DNA of 63,194 bases, counting the filler, from Candidatus Woesearchaeota archaeon (lineage in GTDB: Archaea; Nanobdellota; Nanobdellia; Woesearchaeales; J072), in assembly GCA_003695265.1 (NCBI GenBank). It is 9 parts of 9 records of this genome, joined end to end, with 100 filler letters (N's around TTAATTAATTAA, not from the genome) between each part and the next. Parts side by side here need not be neighbours in the genome. Positions count along the whole stretch, not along the records: positions 49,590 to 63,194 come from RFII01000012.1; 8 more parts are not named here. One strand, given 5' to 3'. This document shows positions 46,756 through 57,324 of the stretch, in pieces (position 1 is the stretch's first letter; each line of letters opens with the position of its first letter). The translations under genes and the position numbers were made by a program. Below the pieces are notes generated by a model that saw only the letters and a program-made list of their open reading frames with translations, was not told where the DNA came from and did not search any database.

Positions 46756-48303
46756 TTAGCAGTAATCCTCGCACTCTGGCGGTATTGTGCCAAAGCAGAG
46801 GCATGGCGGCCTGTTCTTGTCAAGAACAGTAATTTTTACTGTTGCTTTTGATTTTGCTTTTCCGTCAGAAGCTGTTATTGTCACTTCATAAACTCCTGCG
46901 TCGTCATAGCCTGTTTGTTTTGTGCTTGAAGTCATCCAGCCCGAATACTCAACAGTCACGTCATCGCCGTCAGGGTCAGACACTTCCGGCTCAAGCACAA
47001 CAGTGTCGCCTTCTGTAACTTCTATTTCCTTATCAATGTTGATGACTGGAGGTGCGTTCAAAGAGTTAACGATTATTGTTACTTCCTTTTCTGTTGCGAG
47101 GGAGCCGTCGCTTGCAGTGACTGTCACTGTGTAAGTGCCAGCGTCTCCTTCTTTTGTCTGCCACTCGCCGAACTCATCGAGCGGCTCTTCAAAGCTTATT
47201 GTGACTTCGTCTCCGTCAGGGTCATATACTTCTGGCTCGACAACAACTGTGTCTCCTTCTATGACGGCAACGTTTTTGAGCTTTTCAAAGACTGGAGCCC
47301 TATTGACGTTGTTAACAATAACTTTGACTTTTTGCGATGTTTCTTTTTTGCCGTCGCTTGCTGTTACAGTGACGAAGTGCTCTCCAGCATCATCATAACC
47401 TGTTTTTTTAGTGTCAGATGTCATCCAGCCGGAATACTTAATTGTAACGTCATCGCCGTCTGGGTCGGTTGCTTTTGCAACGATTTTGACTGTGTCGCCT
47501 TCATCAACTTCGATGTCCTCAATCTCCTCGAGGACTGGAGCTTTGTTCTTGCTTTCAACTATTACTAAAACGTCCTGGCTTGTGCTTAGGACGCCGTCAG
47601 AAGCTGTTATTGTAACAACGTATTTTCCGGCGTCTCCTTCTTTTGTCTGCCACTCGCCGTTCTCATCAAACGGTTCGCTAAAAGTATATTCGATTGGGTC
47701 TCCGTCAGGATCAGTTGCTTTTAGGTCGGGGAAGCTTGCTAGTTCGCCCTCTACAAAAGTGAATGTTGGCAGTCCTTCAGTTTCTTTCTCAACAGAAACC
47801 TCTTCCTCGACAGGAGCCTCTTCTTCAGAAACATTTTCCTCAACAGCAACTTTTTCCTCGACCTCTTCTTCAGCAGGAGCTTCCTCGACACTGGTTTCTT
47901 CTTCAGCAGGAGCTTCGGGCGCTGTTTCTTCTCCTCCTGTTAATTTGCTAAGCTTTTCTTTCTTTGAATCAATAATGCTCTGCACAGCCGCGATCATTGA
48001 CTCGTCAGCACCCGCATCTCTTAAGTCGTTAAGCTTTTGCTCCAATTGCTCGATATCATTTTTTAAGGATTCTATCATTTCAGCATCAGAAACAATTTCT
48101 TCTTTTGGCTGCTCTTCTTGGGTTTGTTCCTCAACCAAAACCTCTTCAGCCTCTTCTTCAACAGACATTGAGGTTAAGGAGGAGGGGCATATGCCTGCTT
48201 TTCCAAAGCCTCCGAAATAGCGGCACCCACCAACGTATATTATTGCCAGAATCAATATTATTATAACAAATTTCTTAAACTCGTTTGCTCCTTTTTTAGT
48301 CAT
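46756..48303 (-). CDS. Acidic surface protein with four cadherin/Ig-like repeats
   Basis: DPDGD..VTASDG..NxAP repeated four times; N-terminal TM. Confidence 0.88.
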   Translation of the reverse strand: MTKKGANEFKKFVIIILILAIIYVGGCRYFGGFGKAGICPSSLTSMSVEEEAEEVLVEEQTQEEQPKEEIVSDAEMIESLKNDIEQLEQKLNDLRDAGADESMIAAVQSIIDSKKEKLSKLTGGEETAPEAPAEEETSVEEAPAEEEVEEKVAVEENVSEEEAPVEEEVSVEKETEGLPTFTFVEGELASFPDLKATDPDGDPIEYTFSEPFDENGEWQTKEGDAGKYVVTITASDGVLSTSQDVLVIVESKNKAPVLEEIEDIEVDEGDTVKIVAKATDPDGDDVTIKYSGWMTSDTKKTGYDDAGEHFVTVTASDGKKETSQKVKVIVNNVNRAPVFEKLKNVAVIEGDTVVVEPEVYDPDGDEVTISFEEPLDEFGEWQTKEGDAGTYTVTVTASDGSLATEKEVTIIVNSLNAPPVINIDKEIEVTEGDTVVLEPEVSDPDGDDVTVEYSGWMTSSTKQTGYDDAGVYEVTITASDGKAKSKATVKITVLDKNRPPCLCFGTIPPECEDYC

Positions 48304-49439: not shown

Positions 49440-49589
49440 GTTCTTGTTTTTTTTTATGATGCGAAAAAAGTTTTTTTTAAAAAAAAAAANNNNNNNNNNN
49501 NNNNNNNNNNNNNNNNNNNNNNNNNNNNNNNNNTTAATTAATTAANNNNNNNNNNNNNNNNNNNNNNNNNNNNNNNNNNNNNNNNNNNN

Positions 49590-49862
49590 ATAGTGGCTTA
49601 TGCGATGCAGCTGGGAGAAGAAGACGGAATAAGAAGAGAAGGGCTGAGAATACAAGAAAGAATAGGAGTTGAAATGAGAAACAAGTATGGAATATCTGTC
49701 AACGGACAAGCTGTTAGAGGAGAAGAAAAACTCTCAGACTACCTCAGAGACGCGACTTCTGCGTCAGGAAGGAATTACCTTGAAGCAGAGATCATAGTGG
49801 CAGCAAGGCAGGAAGGCGCAAGTCCTCTGGAGTACAGTTTAAGAGGATACAGGTTAAGGTAA
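49590..49862 (+). CDS. Putative ubiquitin-like (beta-grasp) protein, 5'-partial, with C-terminal extension
   Basis: YGISVNGQAV..EKLSDY pattern, terminal strand EIIVAARQEG then 14 extra residues; context of JAB and E1 genes. Confidence 0.55.
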   Translation: MVAYAMQLGEEDGIRREGLRIQERIGVEMRNKYGISVNGQAVRGEEKLSDYLRDATSASGRNYLEAEIIVAARQEGASPLEYSLRGYRLR

Positions 49863-49882: not shown

Positions 49883-51196
49883 ATGGGAATAAAAACCTTT
49901 TTTTCAGACTTGGCAGAAAGGGGGCCTCTCTTAATTGTTGGGGAAGAGGCTTACCTAGTTAATTCCAGGCCGAGCCCGAGCAATGGAAACAACCTTATTA
50001 CTTTCGGAAACGCAAACCTGGAATTAGTGCCAGCAGGAACTCTGTCAGACCTTGTCAGGTTTTACAAGCACCACATGGCAGACCAAATCTACGCTGAAAA
50101 AAAGGAGTTCATTGAAGAAAGAGTTGATCAAGGATTTATGACAGCAGAAGAGCGTGAAAGAGAAATTGGAGACAGGAAACTGTTCTCATTCATAGTGAAT
50201 GAGCTCATGCCTTATTTAAGCGGCCACAAAGAGGACATAAGCGAATTGCTTGGCGAAGAAATAGAAAGGCAGCAGATAACAGAAAAAGATGAAGTTGATG
50301 AGGAAGAGCTCTTAGAAAATCTTGAGCGCGTGAAAAGAGAACTGAGGGGAGAGCAGGAAAGGTATGCTAAAGCAGAGTTCCAAGGAGACACCACTGACGA
50401 AGTTTCATACTTAAGGAGCCTTTTGCAAGGAGACGTGCTGGCTTTAAGCGGAATAGTTTACAAGCTGGAAAAGTCAAGAAACCCACAAATAATAATCTCA
50501 GTCAAAGGGTCATTGGACCAATATGACCTTAGAGAAATAGGAAGAGTGGAGGACATTGATGAGGAATATGCGCGCTTCCTCTCGTGGAGGTCAAGGCTTG
50601 AGGCTATTGACGAATTCACGGATTACATAAAAGCTGTCCAGAGAATTAGGCTTGAAGCGACTAAGGACCTTGACAAAATAATGCAGTTAAGGGAATTCAA
50701 TGATGGGGATGTGGGATTCCTAAGGCATGAAGGGGATGTTTATGTTTATCAGATAATACCACCTTTTGCCATGCTTGACCCGAGGCCGACAAAGAAAGGC
50801 GTTGCTTATGAGTTCCCAAGGCTAAGGGTTGGGATGCGAATACAATATGAAGATGGCAGAATTTATTTAGACGAGCCCGTGCTGTTTGAGGCGGAATGGC
50901 ATCCGTTTACTGAAATGGAGAATGCAGAATTCCAGCATCTTTGCGGGGGGCATGTTCCTCCAAGGAACGGCTCTGAAGTTGAGTGGGTTGCAAAAGCGCT
51001 GGATGATGCGAAGAATTTGGTAATGAACGGTTTAACGCCGGGAAGCATCAGAGAGCACGGCGGAGACAAGAAGTATGGGGGCAGATATTTTGGTATTAGC
51101 TTAGACGAAAAGCTGGCTCCAAGAAAAATCAGTGAGAAAGAAGCGCGCAGAAAAGGGCTGCTAATTACGAACAGGTGGGACTGGAGGGATGATTGA
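49883..51196 (+). CDS. Putative E2-like protein with N-terminal coiled-coil region
   Basis: C-terminal YEFPRL...WHPF...HLCGG; only Cys in 437 aa; operon context. Confidence 0.55.
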   Translation: MGIKTFFSDLAERGPLLIVGEEAYLVNSRPSPSNGNNLITFGNANLELVPAGTLSDLVRFYKHHMADQIYAEKKEFIEERVDQGFMTAEEREREIGDRKLFSFIVNELMPYLSGHKEDISELLGEEIERQQITEKDEVDEEELLENLERVKRELRGEQERYAKAEFQGDTTDEVSYLRSLLQGDVLALSGIVYKLEKSRNPQIIISVKGSLDQYDLREIGRVEDIDEEYARFLSWRSRLEAIDEFTDYIKAVQRIRLEATKDLDKIMQLREFNDGDVGFLRHEGDVYVYQIIPPFAMLDPRPTKKGVAYEFPRLRVGMRIQYEDGRIYLDEPVLFEAEWHPFTEMENAEFQHLCGGHVPPRNGSEVEWVAKALDDAKNLVMNGLTPGSIREHGGDKKYGGRYFGISLDEKLAPRKISEKEARRKGLLITNRWDWRDD

Positions 51197-52490
51197 AATG
51201 GCAGATGAGTTGGAAGAATTACTGCAAAGCTCGGAAACAGGAAGAAGAATAACTCCAAGGGAGATAATTCCGGGAGTTGTGCCTTTCACAGAAGGAGCCT
51301 ACAAAAAAGCAGACATGATCGGGCCAATCATAAAAGAGCTTACAGGAAGGGACCTTGAGTGGTCTGCGTTCATGCTTGCACAGCAGGGCGATCCTAATTA
51401 TGTTGTAAGGGACCTTTTGCTACAAGAGGGACAGGACATAAGGTTTGGGAATGTTGAGATAAAAGGGGAAGACGTTGCAAGGGCAAGCGCAAAAGTACAG
51501 GAAAGAAACCAGAAAGAAGGAACAAACTTTTATGTTATTGGATGGATTCACGGCCATGGAAGAAGTTTTTTAGTGCCTTCCACTACAGACAGACAAAATT
51601 TTGAGACTGTAATTAATTCTGTTGCCCTGAACACAGAGCAGCATGTTTTGGTGCCTTTAAGATTAATAGAAACCGAAGCCGTGAGAAAAATGAGAAATGG
51701 AAGAATTATTCAAACAGGGAGAGCTGTTGAGGACGCTGTTATCGAGTATTCCCTAAGGGAAGATGCGCGATTGAGAAGTCTGTTAAGAAGGCATGGAATC
51801 GAGTTTGAGGAAGGTGAAGAAAGAGAAAAAGCGCTCTCATTATTGTACTCGTTATTAGGAGCAACAAGTATAGAATACCAGCAGGCCAACATATTTGGCT
51901 TCTCATATTTTGTAATAATGAACAACAGGCACGAAAAGCCTTATGCAGCAATAGCCTGGGCTTCTGAGAGAGCCATTACAAGGACGAGAAGAGCAGAGCT
52001 TATTGAAGGCCTTGAAATTAAAAGAGTTGCTGCTGGGAATGACATAGTTGTAAGTGAGGAATCCCTAGAGCAAGAAATAAGAGACAATATTGACCTGCCG
52101 AAGAAAGGATTATTCTCATTGTTTGGCACTTATGAAGGGGGGAGTTATTGGGATGGCGGATATTCTGGTGGAAGAGGGCAACCATATTGGGGAAGAGGAG
52201 CCCATGAACACGCATTCTGGATGTCAAGAGAGCTTTTGAGAACATTGGAGGGCAGAATCAGTGAGTGTGAAGACCCAGAAGACAAGTCAAAGATGAGAGA
52301 AGTAAAATCATTAGTAGAAATGCTGGGGAAGGTTGAGAGGGCCAGAACAAGAAATGCCCAAATGGAAATTATTGACTCTTATTTCAGGAGGAACTACGGC
52401 TGGCAGCCTGCTGAGGAGCAGGAAACAGACGAGCTTCTTGGCAGAGAACCAAACTCTCCTGATTACAAAGGAGGAGGCAAAAAAGAATGA
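51189..52490 (+). CDS. JAB/JAMM (MPN+) metalloprotease
   Basis: LEWSAFML plus exact HxHx7Sx2D motif (GWIHGHGRSFLVPSTTD). Confidence 0.85.
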   Translation: MIEMADELEELLQSSETGRRITPREIIPGVVPFTEGAYKKADMIGPIIKELTGRDLEWSAFMLAQQGDPNYVVRDLLLQEGQDIRFGNVEIKGEDVARASAKVQERNQKEGTNFYVIGWIHGHGRSFLVPSTTDRQNFETVINSVALNTEQHVLVPLRLIETEAVRKMRNGRIIQTGRAVEDAVIEYSLREDARLRSLLRRHGIEFEEGEEREKALSLLYSLLGATSIEYQQANIFGFSYFVIMNNRHEKPYAAIAWASERAITRTRRAELIEGLEIKRVAAGNDIVVSEESLEQEIRDNIDLPKKGLFSLFGTYEGGSYWDGGYSGGRGQPYWGRGAHEHAFWMSRELLRTLEGRISECEDPEDKSKMREVKSLVEMLGKVERARTRNAQMEIIDSYFRRNYGWQPAEEQETDELLGREPNSPDYKGGGKKE

Positions 52491-53962
52491 CAGCAGAAAA
52501 AAACATTCACAGGTACGACCGTCAGAACCTAATTAGGGGTTGGGACCAGGAAAAACTGACAAGAGGTATTGTCACGATAATCGGGTCTGATGCCTTAGCT
52601 AGGTATGTGGCTCTTCCGCTAGCAGCGCTTGGCGTAGGAACAATAAGAATAATAGACTCTTCTGAAGGCGAAGAGAAAGACAGGCTGCTTGACATTCCGC
52701 TTAGAGGGGATTCAAGAGCAAAAACGTTAGAGGACGCTCTAAGAAGAATCAATCCGGAAATAGAGGTTATGGGAATAAACTCTGACCTGACGGCAAGGGC
52801 GGCCCAGTATTTTTTGGAGGGAAGCGATGTTGTGGTTGACGCAACAAATGATATCACATCAAAAAGCCACGCTTTAGAATACCATTTAAGGACAGGAACG
52901 CCTCTCTTCAGCGCGTCTTCCGACACTACAAAGGGAAAGATTGTGATGGCGAATGGAGATCCTCAGCCAATAATTCTTATGCCAATGTTTAGGGGAGCAG
53001 AGCAGGGCGACCTTGTTTCCCTTGAGCTTGGCGGCGTGCTTGCAGAAGAAGTGAAGAAAGTGCTTATGCAACAGGGAAGCCCCCTGGCAATAATTTATAA
53101 TTATAATTTGGAGTCAAACGAGAGGTTCGGGTTTGCGTCAGACAGGGAATTAAGGGAAACGGCTGATGCTTTCAGAGGCAAAAAAATACTCATGGTGGGA
53201 GCAGGAGCCCTTGGGTGCTTTTTAGGCCCTGCAACTATTACCAGTATGTCTCCTGGAAGGATTGACATAATGGATTATGACACAATAGAAGACCACAACC
53301 TTAACAGGCAGGTATGTTTTTATGACGCTGTCGGCAGGCTAAAGGCTGAGAGGCTAGCACAAACCTTAGAAGCAATGTCAAGAGGCGGAACAGAAATAAG
53401 GGCTTTGGTTGAGAAATTTACAGAGGAGTTTCAGCCAGATGTTGAGTACGACCTAATATTTGACGCTGTTGACAGCTTCTTCACAAAAGCAATACTACAT
53501 AATTACGCAAAAGAGCATGGAATTCCAATAATAAGCGGCGGAACTGACTACAGGGCCTCAACAGTAATGGTTTACAAACCAGGAGAAACGTCCTGTTTTG
53601 ACTGCCAGATAAACCTCACAGAGCTTGCTGTTAAGGCTGAAATTATTAGAAGGACAAGCTGCTTGCAGGCGCCTGACCCTTCTGTGATAATGACTAACCA
53701 GGTAGCAGGAGCTTTAATGGTTGCAGAAGCCAGGAGCGTCCTAAGGCCTGACCTTTACGGCAGGCCTGTGAATGGTCCTATAAGGTTTATTTCAGACTTT
53801 GACTCAAGAGGGGGCGTTAATGAATTAGAGTCAGTATGTAGCTGCCACACAAGAGGGCCGAGCAGAATAGAACTTCCAGATCCGGAAAGGGTGAGAATTG
53901 AGGAAAGAGAGGTTGACGGCCAAATAGTTAAAGAAGTATATATTGACGGAAAGAGGCTATAA
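52487..53962 (+). CDS. E1-like ThiF enzyme with tandem inactive and active adenylation domains
   Basis: RYDRQ and degenerate GSDALA in domain 1; GAGALG, DTIEDHNLNRQ, DAVD, CFDC, RTSC, CSC in domain 2. Confidence 0.9.
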   Translation: MTAEKNIHRYDRQNLIRGWDQEKLTRGIVTIIGSDALARYVALPLAALGVGTIRIIDSSEGEEKDRLLDIPLRGDSRAKTLEDALRRINPEIEVMGINSDLTARAAQYFLEGSDVVVDATNDITSKSHALEYHLRTGTPLFSASSDTTKGKIVMANGDPQPIILMPMFRGAEQGDLVSLELGGVLAEEVKKVLMQQGSPLAIIYNYNLESNERFGFASDRELRETADAFRGKKILMVGAGALGCFLGPATITSMSPGRIDIMDYDTIEDHNLNRQVCFYDAVGRLKAERLAQTLEAMSRGGTEIRALVEKFTEEFQPDVEYDLIFDAVDSFFTKAILHNYAKEHGIPIISGGTDYRASTVMVYKPGETSCFDCQINLTELAVKAEIIRRTSCLQAPDPSVIMTNQVAGALMVAEARSVLRPDLYGRPVNGPIRFISDFDSRGGVNELESVCSCHTRGPSRIELPDPERVRIEEREVDGQIVKEVYIDGKRL

Positions 53963-53963
53963 A

Positions 53964-55559
53964 ATGAGAGAGGGAATTGACCTGCTGGACGAACTTGAGG
54001 AAGAAGAAACAATTGCAGAAGTTGTGAACTTAGCTGCAAACACAGATCCTGTTAGGAAAATTGCTAGAATACTTGAATCACAAAAACCGGATTTCGATTT
54101 TGAGATTGAAGAAGGAATAAGCATAAGCTCAGCAAGCTTAGCGTATTATTTTGGGAAAGGACTAAGCAAAACACAGTTATCTGAAATTATAAGGAAGAAT
54201 GGAGACCAATCATTCTTAGCAGCATTGTATTCACAGACAGACTCTGAATCAGTAATAACATGCCTTTTGCCAGCAGCATCGCCAGTCCATGTCTTGAAAC
54301 AATACTTGAGCTTAAGGAATCTGCCCCAGCCAGAACAGGAAGAAGAAAATCCTGTGTTGCAATACACAAATACCAGTTTTACAGCTTCTCTTGCGGCGCA
54401 GGAGCTTCTCCAAGCACTTCCTTTTGTTGAAGAGCAGCTAGAAAGGATAATGAGCCCAAGCGATTTAAGGGATGTCATATTGTTTTCACAAATGGTCTTA
54501 TCAGCAGAAGACAAGAATTTAAGAACAGAGCTTGAAGCTCTTGCAGCACAAGAAGGCTTGACAGCTAGAGAAATGCTTGACAGGGGCGCAAGGATATATT
54601 TCTCAGAAACATTCCCTTCATATTTCGCTTTAGTTGAATCAGCACAACAAGAAGAAGTTGACAAAGATGTTGCTAAGCAGGCCTTAAAAGAACTGTTTGG
54701 AGACAGCTTAAAGACTTACGAGCAGGCGGCATGTCTGTCAGAGCTTGTGGATGATCCCAAAATTGTTAGTAATATATTCTCTTGGCTTGACAAGCAAAAG
54801 ATAATGCATGAATTCAGAGAAGACAAGAAAAAGCACGAGGAATCACAGCCCAACTTTTTTGAGACGTTCAAGGCTATTGTCTCTGAGTATTTCAAACAAA
54901 ATGGGTTAAATGCAGATGAAGAGTGTTTTTTCAGGCCGGCAGAAAAAGATGATTATGAAAAAGGCCGCAAGTTCAGGGTAAGCCCAAAAAGCGAGTTTTA
55001 TTATGACTATAAAGGTGTTTTAGGTACTGCAGCGGGTTGTACATGTGGAAGACAAGTATGGAAAATTAATTTTGATGGTGATGGCAGATGCCTTCCTTTC
55101 CCAGAATTAGAAGTTGCTATTTCCTTAGATGAATTCCTTCCGAAGAGCGGCAGATTAAGCCATAGAGGCTATGAGCAGCTCTGCACAGAGTTTATGCTGG
55201 AACACTTAATAGAAAGACCCGAGTTTGAAGTGGGGGATAAAGTAGAGGTTGTGAACAGCGGAACAAATTATCTCTATACAAAAGATGGAAGCTGGGGCTA
55301 TGTAGAGAGAATCACGGAAGATCAGATTGACATTGAGTTCCACCACTTAACAGGCGAACACCATACAACGCCAGTAACATTTGATATTAAAAAAGAGCAT
55401 GTCAGATCATTAGAGGAAAGAAAGCCGCAAGAAGATGAAACAGCAAGATTCCTGCAAATAAAACAAGAGATAGAAAGCGCTGGAGAAGTTGGCGCTTATC
55501 TCACAAGACACAGGGCAATTAGGCTTATAGAGGAAAGGCTGAACGCAATTTTTGAATAA
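53964..55559 (+). CDS. Hypothetical protein: helical N-terminus, C-terminal SH3/KOW-like barrels
   Basis: Long ORF starting 1 nt after E1 stop; FEVGDKVEVV...GYVERI..QIDIEF. Confidence 0.75.
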   Translation: MREGIDLLDELEEEETIAEVVNLAANTDPVRKIARILESQKPDFDFEIEEGISISSASLAYYFGKGLSKTQLSEIIRKNGDQSFLAALYSQTDSESVITCLLPAASPVHVLKQYLSLRNLPQPEQEEENPVLQYTNTSFTASLAAQELLQALPFVEEQLERIMSPSDLRDVILFSQMVLSAEDKNLRTELEALAAQEGLTAREMLDRGARIYFSETFPSYFALVESAQQEEVDKDVAKQALKELFGDSLKTYEQAACLSELVDDPKIVSNIFSWLDKQKIMHEFREDKKKHEESQPNFFETFKAIVSEYFKQNGLNADEECFFRPAEKDDYEKGRKFRVSPKSEFYYDYKGVLGTAAGCTCGRQVWKINFDGDGRCLPFPELEVAISLDEFLPKSGRLSHRGYEQLCTEFMLEHLIERPEFEVGDKVEVVNSGTNYLYTKDGSWGYVERITEDQIDIEFHHLTGEHHTTPVTFDIKKEHVRSLEERKPQEDETARFLQIKQEIESAGEVGAYLTRHRAIRLIEERLNAIFE

Positions 55560-55580: not shown

Positions 55581-56234
55581 ATGGCAGACAAAAGATTGGT
55601 TGAAAGGCTTGTTCAGTTTGAATGCGACTTGGACAGCAAGGTTTTAGAAGAATCCATGGAGATTGAGAATTGGCTTGAAGTTGAAGCTCCAGCAATGAAC
55701 AAATTAAGGGGGATTATTGAAGAGAAATATTCGAGAAAAGCCCAGGAAAAAATTAACAGGGCGCTTTACACTGGAAAAACAAGAGCGCCTATTAAAGAGA
55801 GGATTATGATTTATTTATTTTTAGGAAAGCAAGGAGTGCAAGAAGATGAGTATTTCAGAAGAGAAAAACACGAGCTCAGAAAGCTTGTGATAGAAGAAGC
55901 GCAGAATTTAGCAAACGGCAGCCCATTAACCAGAGAGCAGTTCGAGGAGGCTTTTGCTCATGCCATAAGCAGGTTCGGCGTTCAGAGATTCAGGGATTCA
56001 GAAATGGGGCCTTATCATCTTGCAGAGCAGTTCCTAGGAAAATTAGTGGGGATTACTGAAAGGCAGCTCGAACGCAGGCCTCACAAAGCAGAAAAGTATG
56101 AGACACAAATCAAGATTTATAATGCTCTGAGGCGTCTAGGCTTCAGGTGGGTTAATGGATTCATAAATCAGGTGTTAGAGATACGTGAAAAGTATAATGG
56201 AGACAGGAGTGCAGAACAATGGCAGGCAAGATAA
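55581..56234 (+). CDS. Hypothetical alpha-helical protein
   Basis: 217 aa, GAGGA RBS, in operon. Confidence 0.75.
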   Translation: MADKRLVERLVQFECDLDSKVLEESMEIENWLEVEAPAMNKLRGIIEEKYSRKAQEKINRALYTGKTRAPIKERIMIYLFLGKQGVQEDEYFRREKHELRKLVIEEAQNLANGSPLTREQFEEAFAHAISRFGVQRFRDSEMGPYHLAEQFLGKLVGITERQLERRPHKAEKYETQIKIYNALRRLGFRWVNGFINQVLEIREKYNGDRSAEQWQAR

Positions 56235-56548
56235 ACCCAAGAAACTTTGTGATAAGAAAGCACCACAGGCATGACTTAAGGGACTGGATCAGGGCAAACT
56301 TCCCTTTTATAGAGGAGAAAAGCACGTTCAATTATGGTCCTGAAGACTTCAAGATGCTTGAGGAAAGAGCAGATGAGATATACGATGCGTGCAGAAAAGT
56401 TGAGGAAATAGACTTAAGAGCTAAGTCAAGCTACGCTGATTATTACAAAGAAGACTGGGATAGAATAAGGACAGCATACGAGAAAAGAGACTTTGTGGAA
56501 ATGGCCTACGCCCTAAAAACACTTGTAGATGCAATTGATGCTGAGTAG
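56219..56548 (+). CDS. Hypothetical protein
   Basis: 109 aa, GGAG RBS, overlaps upstream gene. Confidence 0.72.
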   Translation: MAGKINPRNFVIRKHHRHDLRDWIRANFPFIEEKSTFNYGPEDFKMLEERADEIYDACRKVEEIDLRAKSSYADYYKEDWDRIRTAYEKRDFVEMAYALKTLVDAIDAE

Positions 56549-56559
56549 GTAAATAAAAA

Positions 56560-57324
56560 ATGAATGAGGAGCCAGAACTTCAATACGTGAAAGGAGGACC
56601 AGAACCAGGTGGTAAAGTAATGATATACGGCGAACTAGTTAGAGAAGGGTTGGAAAACAAAGTTTATCTTGCAATAAATGCCCAGAATATTGTGATGAAT
56701 ATTGAGGATATGATACCACCATTTATGAGAAAGATACCAGGATTAGAGGAACTGATTAAAAGTGGTTTTGAAGAAAAAAATTTTGTCGCTTCTAAGGTAA
56801 CACCCAGAATTTTTAATGATGACTCATTCATTGAGGAATATGATGGTGATGTTATTAGCGTTGGGAAGGTCAAATCAGAGAGTGAAGCGTCAAGCTTAAT
56901 AAACAATGTTTTAATTGCTTATATTAGAAGGTTTGTTTCGAATTTCAGTGATAAGAGAAAAACTACAGAAAGTGGGAAAAAAGTAGAAGTTCTTCCAAGG
57001 CTTGAAAAACATTATTCAGATATAAAGTCGGAAGAAGAATTAGAAGGATTATTAACAAGAAAGATTGAGAGTTATTCAGGCTGCCTTTCCCAAGGAGATA
57101 ATGAATCAGCTTCAGAAATCTCACTGCAACTCAGGCTGTTTGCAGAAAACACACCTATCAGCGCGCAGGTCGAGGCAATGCTAAGGAATGCAAGGAGCAA
57201 CCATAAAGAAAAAGATAATATTCAAAGATTACTTGTCAAAGAATGTGGCGCTATTTACAGAGAGAATTATGAATTAGCTGCTAGGATAAGAGATCAGATT
57301 CGTAATTTGCAAAACCTTAAATAA
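56560..57324 (+). CDS. Hypothetical protein with C-terminal UVR (UvrB/C) motif
   Basis: AIYRENYELAARIRDQIRNL. Confidence 0.75.
   Translation: MNEEPELQYVKGGPEPGGKVMIYGELVREGLENKVYLAINAQNIVMNIEDMIPPFMRKIPGLEELIKSGFEEKNFVASKVTPRIFNDDSFIEEYDGDVISVGKVKSESEASSLINNVLIAYIRRFVSNFSDKRKTTESGKKVEVLPRLEKHYSDIKSEEELEGLLTRKIESYSGCLSQGDNESASEISLQLRLFAENTPISAQVEAMLRNARSNHKEKDNIQRLLVKECGAIYRENYELAARIRDQIRNLQNLK

What the first reader, a model, noticed from the sequence alone, without database searches (positions are those of the whole stretch)
52487..53962. E1 with Uba1-like inactive plus active adenylation domains in one chain
Seen: domain 1 keeps RYDRQ but has a degenerate nucleotide loop (GSDALA) and lacks NLNRQ. 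Domain 2 has GAGALG, NLNRQ, a Zn site (CFDC..CSC) and a crossover-loop Cys (RTSC). Known: MoeB/ThiF/UbaA are single-domain homodimers, while eukaryotic Uba1 is an inactive/active pseudo-dimer. Inference: a compact 491-aa pseudo-heterodimeric, thioester-forming E1, informative for E1 evolution.
Basis: partly seen in the sequence, partly recalled or inferred. Interest (0 to 1): 0.8.

Follow-up and report, generated by a model that had tools for sequence, protein, structure and literature searches.

The report
Archaeal ubiquitin-tagging operon, duplicated E1
This gene encodes a two-halved enzyme that likely activates a ubiquitin-like tag within a four-gene protein-tagging kit found in about a fifth of related small archaea, and some Asgard-group genomes carry the same kit with a single-domain enzyme, which would make the step from a one-domain to a two-halved activating enzyme testable.

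Summary
Observation confirmed: a 491-aa ORF with two ThiF-fold halves. The N-half keeps only the RYDRQ helix; the C-half keeps all adenylation motifs and Cys392 (204 of 204 non-redundant homologues). The model superposes on Uba1/6/7 and on bacterial BilD.

Not found in ten literature searches is the family. The E1 ends a conserved operon (β-grasp tag, E2-like protein, JAB peptidase, E1), present in 80 of 401 genomes of the window's order and 9 of 201 Desulfobacterota-group genomes. It has no helical CYS domain; its tag and E2-like protein show no profile similarity to BilA or BilB. Some copies, including two of the closest relatives, add an ARC/Mpa-like or ClpX-like AAA+ ATPase.

Among 251 Asgard-phylum genomes, six carry the tandem E1 and six a single-domain E1 with every motif in one chain, beside the same E2 and JAB families. 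The mixture-model tree separates the family plus BilD's active half from eukaryotic E1s; AU tests do not reject the alternatives. Thioester formation and targets are untested. The scan noted a similar cassette in another genome before.

The parts
52487..53962 (+). Tandem-ThiF E1, 491 aa: inactive adenylation domain (about residues 5-210) plus active adenylation domain (about 211-460) and a short C-terminal hairpin
   Evidence: start overlaps the JAB stop (ATGA, 52487-52490)
52511..52525 (+). RYDRQ of the inactive half; Arg12 is the likely arginine lent to the active site (equivalence to MoeB Arg14 and Uba1 Arg21 is recalled; BilD Arg9 is from the preprint)
   Evidence: Arg12 199/204
53660..53662 (+). 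Cys392, predicted catalytic cysteine on the crossover loop; only 4-7 residues separate it from the next conserved segment, so no CYS domain is inserted
   Evidence: 204/204; model secondary structure
53594..53845 (+). Predicted Zn site: Cys370, Cys373, Cys451, Cys453
   Evidence: sequence; both pairs kept in 102 of 204 homologues
49593..49862 (+). Ubiquitin-like tag gene, 5'-truncated by the contig start at 49590; ends QEG|A plus tail (Gly at 49815-49817, 14 residues follow)
   Evidence: 67% identical to the complete L082 tag, whose model is a β-grasp; Gly in 52 of 57; a read contig runs past the contig start
49883..51196 (+). E2-like protein, 437 aa: ~265-aa N-terminal extension plus C-terminal domain with HPF...LC (His340, Cys354)
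   Evidence: Cys 104/106, His 92/106; fold support weak: Atlas TM 0.42-0.51 to Prok-E2_D/RWD clusters; no Pfam or PDB sequence hit
51189..52490 (+). JAB/MPN metallopeptidase, 433 aa: Glu57, HGH...S..D at 121-134
   Evidence: PADLOC JAB E 0.002; Pfam Prok-JAB E 0.074; motif in 110 of 120 homologues
53943..55559 (+). Accessory protein (538 aa, likely start ATG 53964) with two small β-rich, SH3/KOW-like domains (fold name inferred, not tested); follows the E1 in the closest relatives
   Evidence: the second domain recurs inside E2 and JAB homologues (12 proteins, 11 loci)
55581..57324 (+). Three further co-oriented ORFs (217 aa unknown; 109 aa of a family found beside other copies of the E1; 254 aa with a UVR motif); membership in the system not shown

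Best explanation
The gene encodes a tandem-ThiF E1 that likely activates the β-grasp tag of its own four-gene operon and likely hands it, through a thioester on Cys392, to the neighbouring E2-like protein for attachment to target proteins. Steps: (1) the JAB peptidase trims the tail after the conserved Gly (inferred from BilC precedent and from tails of 1-14 residues); (2) the active half adenylates that Gly, with Arg12 lent by the inactive half, so one chain does the work of a MoeB-type homodimer at a single site (architecture shown by model and conservation; chemistry inferred); (3) Cys392 on a short crossover loop, as in non-canonical E1s such as Atg7, takes the tag (inferred); (4) transfer to Cys354 of the E2-like protein, whose long variable N-terminal part probably selects targets in place of an E3 (inferred); (5) in the sub-lineage of this window an ARC/Mpa-like AAA+ ATPase probably unfolds or extracts tagged proteins (inferred from gene order in relatives; the window's own upstream DNA is missing). 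The most likely role is an accessory conflict or antiviral function rather than core housekeeping. The two halves most likely arose by duplication and division of labour in a lineage separate from eukaryotic Uba1, possibly shared with Bil.
For: Operon conservation in 38 non-redundant loci with at least 7 kb upstream and 5 kb downstream (of 111 non-redundant, 123 in all): tag 37, E2-like 37, JAB 36, all three 34. In 14 further loci of the order: JAB 14, E2-like 13, tag 13. Catalytic residues kept together: E1 Cys 204/204, E2 Cys 104/106, JAB motif 110/120, tag Gly 52/57. Tag model: best Foldseek hit is Caldiarchaeum ubiquitin (E 6.6e-4); the 50 listed VIA rows (Z 5.5-6.8) are dominated by ubiquitin-like/β-grasp chains. 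No other ThiF-family gene in the 94.6%-complete own genome apart from a second copy of this family. AAA+ on the same strand within 7 kb in 26 of the 38 loci (ClpX-like 20, ARC-like 6, never both; families named). Two of the closest complete relatives read ARC-tag-E2-JAB-E1-accessory (L082; L169); a third (L081) has no such ATPase and L001's contig ends just before the tag. Patchy spread: 80 of 401 genomes in 68 of 258 genera, up to 4 copies per genome. Single-domain E1s with RYxRQ, GAGALG, NLNRQ, CxxC, the family's S-C-x4-P-x-P-S-V segment and CxC in one chain, next to the same E2 (E 1e-11 to 1e-14) and JAB (E 1e-26 to 1e-34) families, in 6 Asgard-phylum loci; their N-terminal helix resembles the inactive half and their C-terminal segment the active half. 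Mixture tree: family plus BilD active halves split from eukaryotic halves, MoeB and canonical Asgard E1s at 99/93.
Against: No biochemistry. The E2 assignment rests on a motif, operon position and weak structure hits; profile searches of PDB and Pfam found nothing and hhalign to two UBC domains gave only E 0.067, with the Cys in register. A crossover-loop Cys can be conserved without forming a thioester (MoeB Cys187, recalled). The AAA+ link is not core: 13 of the 26 positive loci are one Desulfobacterota-like lineage (13 of 25 in the others); 0 of 10 order loci chosen only for contig length had one within about 8 kb; ARC-like genes occur in only 5 of 401 genomes and ClpX-like in 33 of 401, against 80 with the E1; none was found in the window's own genome. 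No PADLOC system model covers the tag or E2 and no defence-island context was shown. AU tests do not reject grouping with eukaryotic halves (p 0.157 and 0.35), and the tree holding the active halves with BilD scored higher than the free LG+G4 tree (p 0.646). The single-domain form could be a collapse of the tandem rather than an ancestor; 3 of its 6 loci show no adjacent tag gene.
Confidence: 0.72

Rival explanations
1. The system is a deep, slowly evolving branch of Bil: same ancestral duplication and same antiviral tagging, with Bil having later gained the helical CYS domain and diverged.
For: Same gene order tag-E2-JAB-E1. BilD active halves group with the family's active halves in the mixture tree (91/95), and the constrained tree scored higher. 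A Bil-like E1 on a Natrinema plasmid also lacks a helical CYS insert (L183).
Against: hhalign: inactive half vs BilD inactive half score 29 (E 0.001) against 184 for MoeB; E2-like vs BilB E 0.65; tag vs BilA E 0.15 (six Bil-like operons). No PF14459 match in the own genome (positive control pNGR234a E 3.9e-79). His lies before the E2 Cys here, after it in BilB. BilD is not among the best 60 of 108 PDB hits of the family profile. The quick LG+G4 tree put BilD with eukaryotic E1s instead (95). BilD branches are long.
Confidence: 0.35
2. The family shares its duplication with eukaryotic Uba1 and Aos1/Uba2 and is a surviving minimal precursor of canonical E1s.
For: Top structural hits are Uba1/6/7; top sequence hits are Uba2 and Uba1; tandem copies occur in 6 of 251 Asgard-phylum genomes; AU tests do not reject it (p 0.31 and 0.42; 0.157 and 0.35).
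Against: Eukaryotic halves score higher against single-domain helarchaeal E1s (149 and 244) than against the family's halves (92 and 175). Both mixture trees and the quick tree with single-domain members put eukaryotic halves with canonical Asgard-type E1s, apart from the family. Structural similarity is expected of any IAD-AAD pseudo-dimer, and the predictor has seen Uba1.
Confidence: 0.12
3. A housekeeping proteolysis tag, working like Pup or sampylation, that delivers proteins to a protease through the ARC- or ClpX-like ATPase.
For: ARC-like neighbours match TIGR03689 (E 1e-113 to 1e-125 for three, 3e-31 for one, all below cut-off) and ClpX-like neighbours NF003745 (E 1e-77 to 1e-89, below cut-off); the two are mutually exclusive.
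Against: 80% of the order's sampled genomes lack the system and most copies lack the ATPase. The 13 ARC-like proteins do not end in the proteasome-docking tail recalled for Mpa, and most of the 16 ClpX-like ones show no IGF-like loop or N-terminal zinc domain (motifs recalled).
Confidence: 0.2
4. An adenylation-only, sulfur-transfer enzyme of the MoeB/ThiF/Uba4 kind, with Cys392 dispensable.
For: Both halves are closest in profile to MoeB-like proteins (scores 184 and 304); databases name the homologues ThiF/MoeB adenylyltransferases.
Against: All NCBIfam ThiF/MoeB/UbaA scores are below cut-off; the recurring partners are an E2-like protein and a JAB rather than cofactor enzymes; the tag's closest fold hit is ubiquitin.
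Confidence: 0.06

Closest known systems
BilABCD Types I and II (BilD; PDB 8tz0, 8tyz; bioRxiv 10.1101/2023.09.26.559546)
   Same: Gene order Ubl-E2-JAB-E1; single-chain inactive+active adenylation domains; arginine lent by the inactive half; four-Cys Zn site; tag with a tail after a conserved Gly; no E3 gene seen.
   Different: No ~80-residue helical CYS domain; E2-like protein 310-680 aa with His before Cys and no profile similarity to BilB; tag with a two-helix and hairpin insertion and no similarity to BilA; inactive half still clearly ThiF-like; mainly archaeal; some copies carry an AAA+ ATPase; a single-domain form exists.
Canonical eukaryotic E1s (Uba1, Uba6, Uba7; Aos1-Uba2; NAE1-Uba3)
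   Same: Pseudo-symmetric IAD/AAD core (Z 33-35 over about 420 residues); crossover-loop Zn site as in SUMO and NEDD8 E1s.
   Different: No FCCH, SCCH or UFD; 491 aa against about 1000; not grouped with them in the best trees.
Non-canonical E1s and prokaryotic ThiF family (Atg7, Uba4, Uba5, MoeB, ThiF, UbaA, Cap2)
   Same: Cysteine on a short crossover loop (Atg7 Cys507, passage read in PMC12355090); highest profile similarity is to MoeB.
   Different: Those are homodimers with two sites; this is a single-site tandem with a cognate E2-like partner on a separate gene.
Canonical archaeal ubiquitin system (Caldiarchaeum/Asgard Ub-E1-E2-RING; PMC5654768, passages)
   Same: Archaeal operon with β-grasp tag, E1, E2 and JAB; the tag's best Foldseek hit is Caldiarchaeum ubiquitin.
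   Different: That E1 has one adenylation domain plus a ubiquitin-like domain, and its partners are eukaryote-like by sequence. L212 shows such an operon, and its E1 falls outside this family in the trees.
PRTRC and Bub operons; Pup-proteasome ARC/Mpa
   Same: E2-like domain nearest to Prok-E2_D clusters; ARC-like ATPase beside some copies.
   Different: Bub uses oxyesters and its E1 lacks the Cys (PMC11601596); PRTRC ThiF matches only weakly (E 8.8e-6); Pup is not a β-grasp and uses no E1 (recalled).

Membership tests
BilABCD | Gene order Ubl-E2-JAB-E1 | tested here: met
   window order; the order varies in relatives, e.g. E1-Ubl-E2-X-ClpX-JAB in Desulfobacterales
BilABCD | E1 with tandem IAD and AAD | tested here: met
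BilABCD | Helical CYS domain (~80 aa) inserted in the crossover loop | tested here: not met
   12-24 residues between the second Zn Cys position and Cys392, and 4-7 after it, in 204 of 204
BilABCD | BilB-type E2 (Cys followed by a catalytic His) | tested here: not met
   His lies 9-15 residues before the Cys in 91 of 92 scored; hhalign to six BilB-like proteins E 0.65 and 0.33
Type II BilD | PF14459 N-terminal domain | tested here: not met
   no match in the own genome or 301 Desulfobacterota-phylum genomes; positive control on pNGR234a
BilABCD | Common ancestry of the E1 with BilD | tested here: inconclusive
   91/95 grouping of active halves; other placement; AU p 0.70 and 0.65
BilABCD | Antiviral conjugation to a virion protein | not testable with these tools
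   needs experiments
Canonical eukaryotic E1 | FCCH, SCCH and UFD domains | tested here: not met
   model elements and length; the alignment skips about 500 residues of Uba1
Canonical eukaryotic E1 | Monophyly of each half with eukaryotic IAD and AAD | tested here: inconclusive
   best trees separate them; AU p 0.157-0.42
MoeB/ThiF/UbaA equivalogs | Single domain; NCBIfam cut-off | tested here: not met
   two domains; TIGR02356 139 of 275 bits, NF047750 78 of 450
E1 superfamily (thioester-forming) | Covalent E1~Ubl thioester | not testable with these tools
   inferred from the invariant Cys392 and partner Cys354
UBC/E2 fold (neighbour 49883-51196) | UBC fold with HPN-like motif before the catalytic Cys | tested here: inconclusive
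   motif kept; Atlas TM 0.42-0.51 on a low-confidence model; no sequence-level hit

The most novel reading that the evidence does not exclude
An undescribed, mainly archaeal ubiquitin-like conjugation system records, within one operon family, the step from a homodimeric single-domain E1 (kept in some Asgard-phylum genomes) to a single-chain inactive/active pseudo-dimer, independently of eukaryotic Uba1, and in part of its range couples the tag to recruited bacterial-type AAA+ unfoldases: a convergent, minimal ubiquitin-unfoldase pathway in DPANN archaea.
Probability: 0.35. Interest if true: 0.85.

Novelty: new variant of a known kind. Interest (0 to 1): 0.66.

Why it matters
How one-site canonical E1s arose from two-site MoeB-like homodimers is usually argued from end points. 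Here one family offers both states with the same partners, plus a design not found in the papers searched: a canonical-type IAD-AAD core with a non-canonical crossover-loop cysteine. A 254-296-aa single-domain enzyme and a 410-490-aa tandem enzyme can be compared directly in vitro. It also points to a complete E1-E2-tag-peptidase kit in about 20% of sampled genomes of one DPANN order, where the tag and E2-like genes escape Pfam, NCBIfam and PADLOC and the E1 is mis-annotated as a cofactor-biosynthesis adenylyltransferase. The architecture as such does not overturn anything, because BilD already showed it in bacteria.

Tried and rejected
Complex prediction of the L082 E1 with its tag: no answer, score 0.00, controls not folded; not evidence either way. 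No RNA holder listed for the operon. Atlas search with the L001 tag: no usable hit. Sequence profiles of the tag and of the E2-like domain against PDB and Pfam: nothing meaningful. hhalign of the tag profile with a single-domain-operon tag (L211): E 0.44, so homology of those small Gly-Gly proteins to the family tag is only suggested by position and tail. Viral contigs: one weak locus (E 1e-6). Plasmids: the 25 listed of 81 hits are MoeB-like or unannotated at about 25-30% identity. Longer-protein search: 18 hits, all eukaryote-type E1s by Pfam; no fused form of this family seen. Shorter-protein search (30-234 aa): mostly contig-end fragments and TcdA-like proteins; no split form shown; the 254-296-aa single-domain form lies largely outside the length windows. 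The profile search over 1.84 billion representatives was not available, so the family's full range is open. First trees without the single-domain members were unresolved and changed with the model. Two planned AU tests (both family halves together; inactive halves with BilD) did not run in time. Left out of trees: most family rows (26, then 14, then 12 of 33 diverse representatives), BilD inactive halves in the last tree, TcdA-like rows. The idea that the AAA+ ATPase is a core component was rejected. The Bil supplement opened was a mass-spectrometry table; the operon list (Supplementary Table 1) was not read and could in principle hold members of this family. Literature searches that found no description of this family; the library lacks most subscription papers. 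Borg and jumbo-ECE papers (passages) concern SAMP/ThiF proteins, not this operon.
Full report
Observation. Pfam ThiF matches both halves. The AlphaFold2 model (pLDDT 94) superposes across both halves on Uba1, Uba6 and Uba7 (Z 33-35) and on BilD (Z 33.4, rmsd 3.2 A, 388 residues). In 204 non-redundant full-length homologues, Cys392 is invariant, Arg12 is kept in 199, the C-half adenylation residues in 202-204, the N-half never has NLNRQ, and the four-Cys Zn site is complete in 102. A 6690-bp contig of a public run spans the gene without gaps.

The architecture is known. The Chambers preprint (10.1101/2023.09.26.559546; parts 1-2 of 7 and passages read) describes BilD as IAD plus AAD plus an ~80-residue CYS domain, with Arg9 from the IAD and a four-Cys Zn site. 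The Bub preprint (PMC11601596, part 1 of 7) says both Bil types have this. The window's E1 differs in having no CYS domain: Cys392 sits on a short crossover loop, as described for Atg7 (PMC12355090, passages).

Context. The contig starts at 49590, inside a small ORF ending QEGA plus tail. Then follow a 437-aa ORF with HPF...LC, a 433-aa JAB protein and the E1, with overlapping or adjacent stops and starts. Named homologues are Woesearchaeota, Pacearchaeota, Nanoarchaeota, Aenigmarchaeota and Desulfobacterota, with a few other lineages. Among 38 non-redundant loci with enough flank, 37 have the small protein, 37 the E2-like protein, 36 the JAB and 34 all three (the profiles were built from these same neighbourhoods). 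The small protein of L082 (67% identical to the window's fragment) folds as a β-grasp with a helical insertion; its best Foldseek hit is Caldiarchaeum ubiquitin, and its Gly is kept in 52 of 57. The E2-like Cys is kept in 104 of 106 and the JAB motif in 110 of 120. The E2 fold itself is weakly supported (negative).

Spread. The E1 is in 80 of 401 genomes of the window's order (the tally includes the own genome and one genome flagged unpublished), 9 of 201 genomes of the phylum of a Desulfobacteraceae locus (including that genome) and 13 of 251 of the phylum of a Helarchaeota locus. The own genome has a second, truncated copy with a JAB on contig C47 and no other ThiF gene.

AAA+ partners. An ARC/Mpa-like or ClpX-like gene lies on the same strand within 7 kb in 26 of the 38 loci, never both. 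Thirteen of these are one bacterial lineage; the others give 13 of 25. In the order sample, ARC-like genes occur in 5 of 401 genomes (4 with the E1, 2 adjacent) and ClpX-like in 33 of 401 (13 with the E1, 4 near it; three of the 33 are flagged unpublished) (overlaps counted by hand). None of 10 loci picked only for contig length had one nearby. Two of the closest complete relatives (L082, L169) read ARC-tag-E2-JAB-E1-accessory, while L081 has no such ATPase; a similar gene may sit in this genome's gap, but none was found in it. The ATPase is accessory.

The Asgard result. Of the 13 matches, six are tandem E1s (L200-L205) followed upstream by JAB and, where the contig allows, E2-like and small genes. 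Six (L206-L211) are 254-296-aa single-domain E1s carrying RYxRQ, GAGALG, NLNRQ, CxxC, the family's cysteine segment and CxC in one chain, directly after the same E2-like and JAB families; three have an adjacent small Gly-Gly protein. One (L212) is the canonical Asgard ubiquitin operon. One single-domain locus lies on a 4.36-Mb contig and one tandem locus on a 410-kb contig, which argues against mis-binning for those. Segment scores show the single-domain form resembling the inactive half in the N-terminal helix (1.95 against -0.06 for the active half) and the active half in the C-terminal segment (1.2 against 0.01 for MoeB). That is the pattern expected from duplication with division of labour, but also from collapse of a tandem.

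Ancestry. By profile, the family's inactive half is closest to MoeB (184) and its own active half (174), not to eukaryotic (90) or BilD (29) inactive halves; eukaryotic halves are closest to single-domain helarchaeal E1s (BilD-like sequences from six plasmid operons). With the single-domain members, the quick LG+G4 tree gives one family clade (SH-aLRT 92) and puts BilD with eukaryotes. The mixture tree gives single-domain plus inactive halves (97/80), active halves plus BilD (91/95), and a 99/93 split from eukaryotes, MoeB and canonical Asgard E1s. AU tests on 160-165 columns reject nothing. I read this as: probably not the Uba1 duplication; shared with Bil or independent about equally.

Mechanism. 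JAB trimming, adenylation at one site with a lent arginine, thioester on Cys392, transfer to the E2-like Cys and attachment to targets are all inferred from conservation and from Bil precedent; none is shown. Patchy spread, paralogue expansion, E2-like lengths of 311-683 aa, JAB lengths of 261-1033 aa and a small domain shuffled among E2, JAB and accessory genes favour an accessory conflict role. The complex prediction gave no answer and is not used.

Novelty. Ten searches found no description of this family. Iyer 2006 (PMC1779556, passages) lists operon types 6a-6d in the passages shown, none matching. The Bil operon table was not seen. The scan's own notes hold a similar archaeal cassette from another genome, which is not independent evidence. 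Verdict: a real feature, a new variant of a known kind; interest 0.66.

Noticed in passing
G000:C47:3-2732 and G000:C77:1699-2244: Second copy of the system in the own genome (5'-truncated E1 with THRQ in place of NLNRQ, JAB, an HTH regulator-like gene) and, elsewhere, a 181-aa E2-like ORF with no cysteine after its HP motif.
   Followed up: partly
window 53943-55559; L002, L006, L007, L081, L082, L084, L093, L100, L103, L001: A ~60-aa β-rich domain (SH3/KOW-like by eye) is shuffled between E2-like, JAB and accessory proteins of the operon: 12 proteins in 11 loci. Candidate target- or adaptor-binding module.
   Followed up: partly
window 56219-56548; L098, L099, L108, L129, L170: A small unnamed family to which the window's 109-aa ORF belongs is expanded around the E1 in operons where no E2-like gene was detected; it may replace the E2 or be a substrate.
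   Followed up: no
window 56560-57324: 254-aa ORF with a C-terminal UVR motif (Pfam E 3e-6; weak McsA hit); such motifs bind AAA+ ATPases in ClpC/McsA (recalled).
   Followed up: no
L183:1785-4547 (Natrinema zhouii plasmid): Bil-like four-gene operon in a haloarchaeon whose E1 has a short acidic crossover insert instead of a helical CYS domain.
   Followed up: partly
L012, L102, L112, L125, L143, L190, L192, L193, L195: Sub-lineages place the operon beside a Ser/Thr kinase, a pyruvate-kinase-like protein and NAD salvage genes (NAD synthase, NAPRTase, cytidylyltransferase-like).
   Followed up: partly
L069 (Poseidoniales record): Two ~520-aa ThiF-containing ORFs in one locus, possibly a two-subunit E1-like pair.
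   Followed up: no
L004, L095, L113: Tandem paralogues of the E2-like gene (up to four) and of the JAB gene around one E1.
   Followed up: no
window 49490-49589: N-run with a TTAATTAATTAA spacer: the window joins separate contigs here, so genes left of 49590 are not known neighbours of the operon.
   Followed up: yes
window 46756-48303 (-): 515-aa predicted surface protein with Ig/PKD-like repeats.
   Followed up: no
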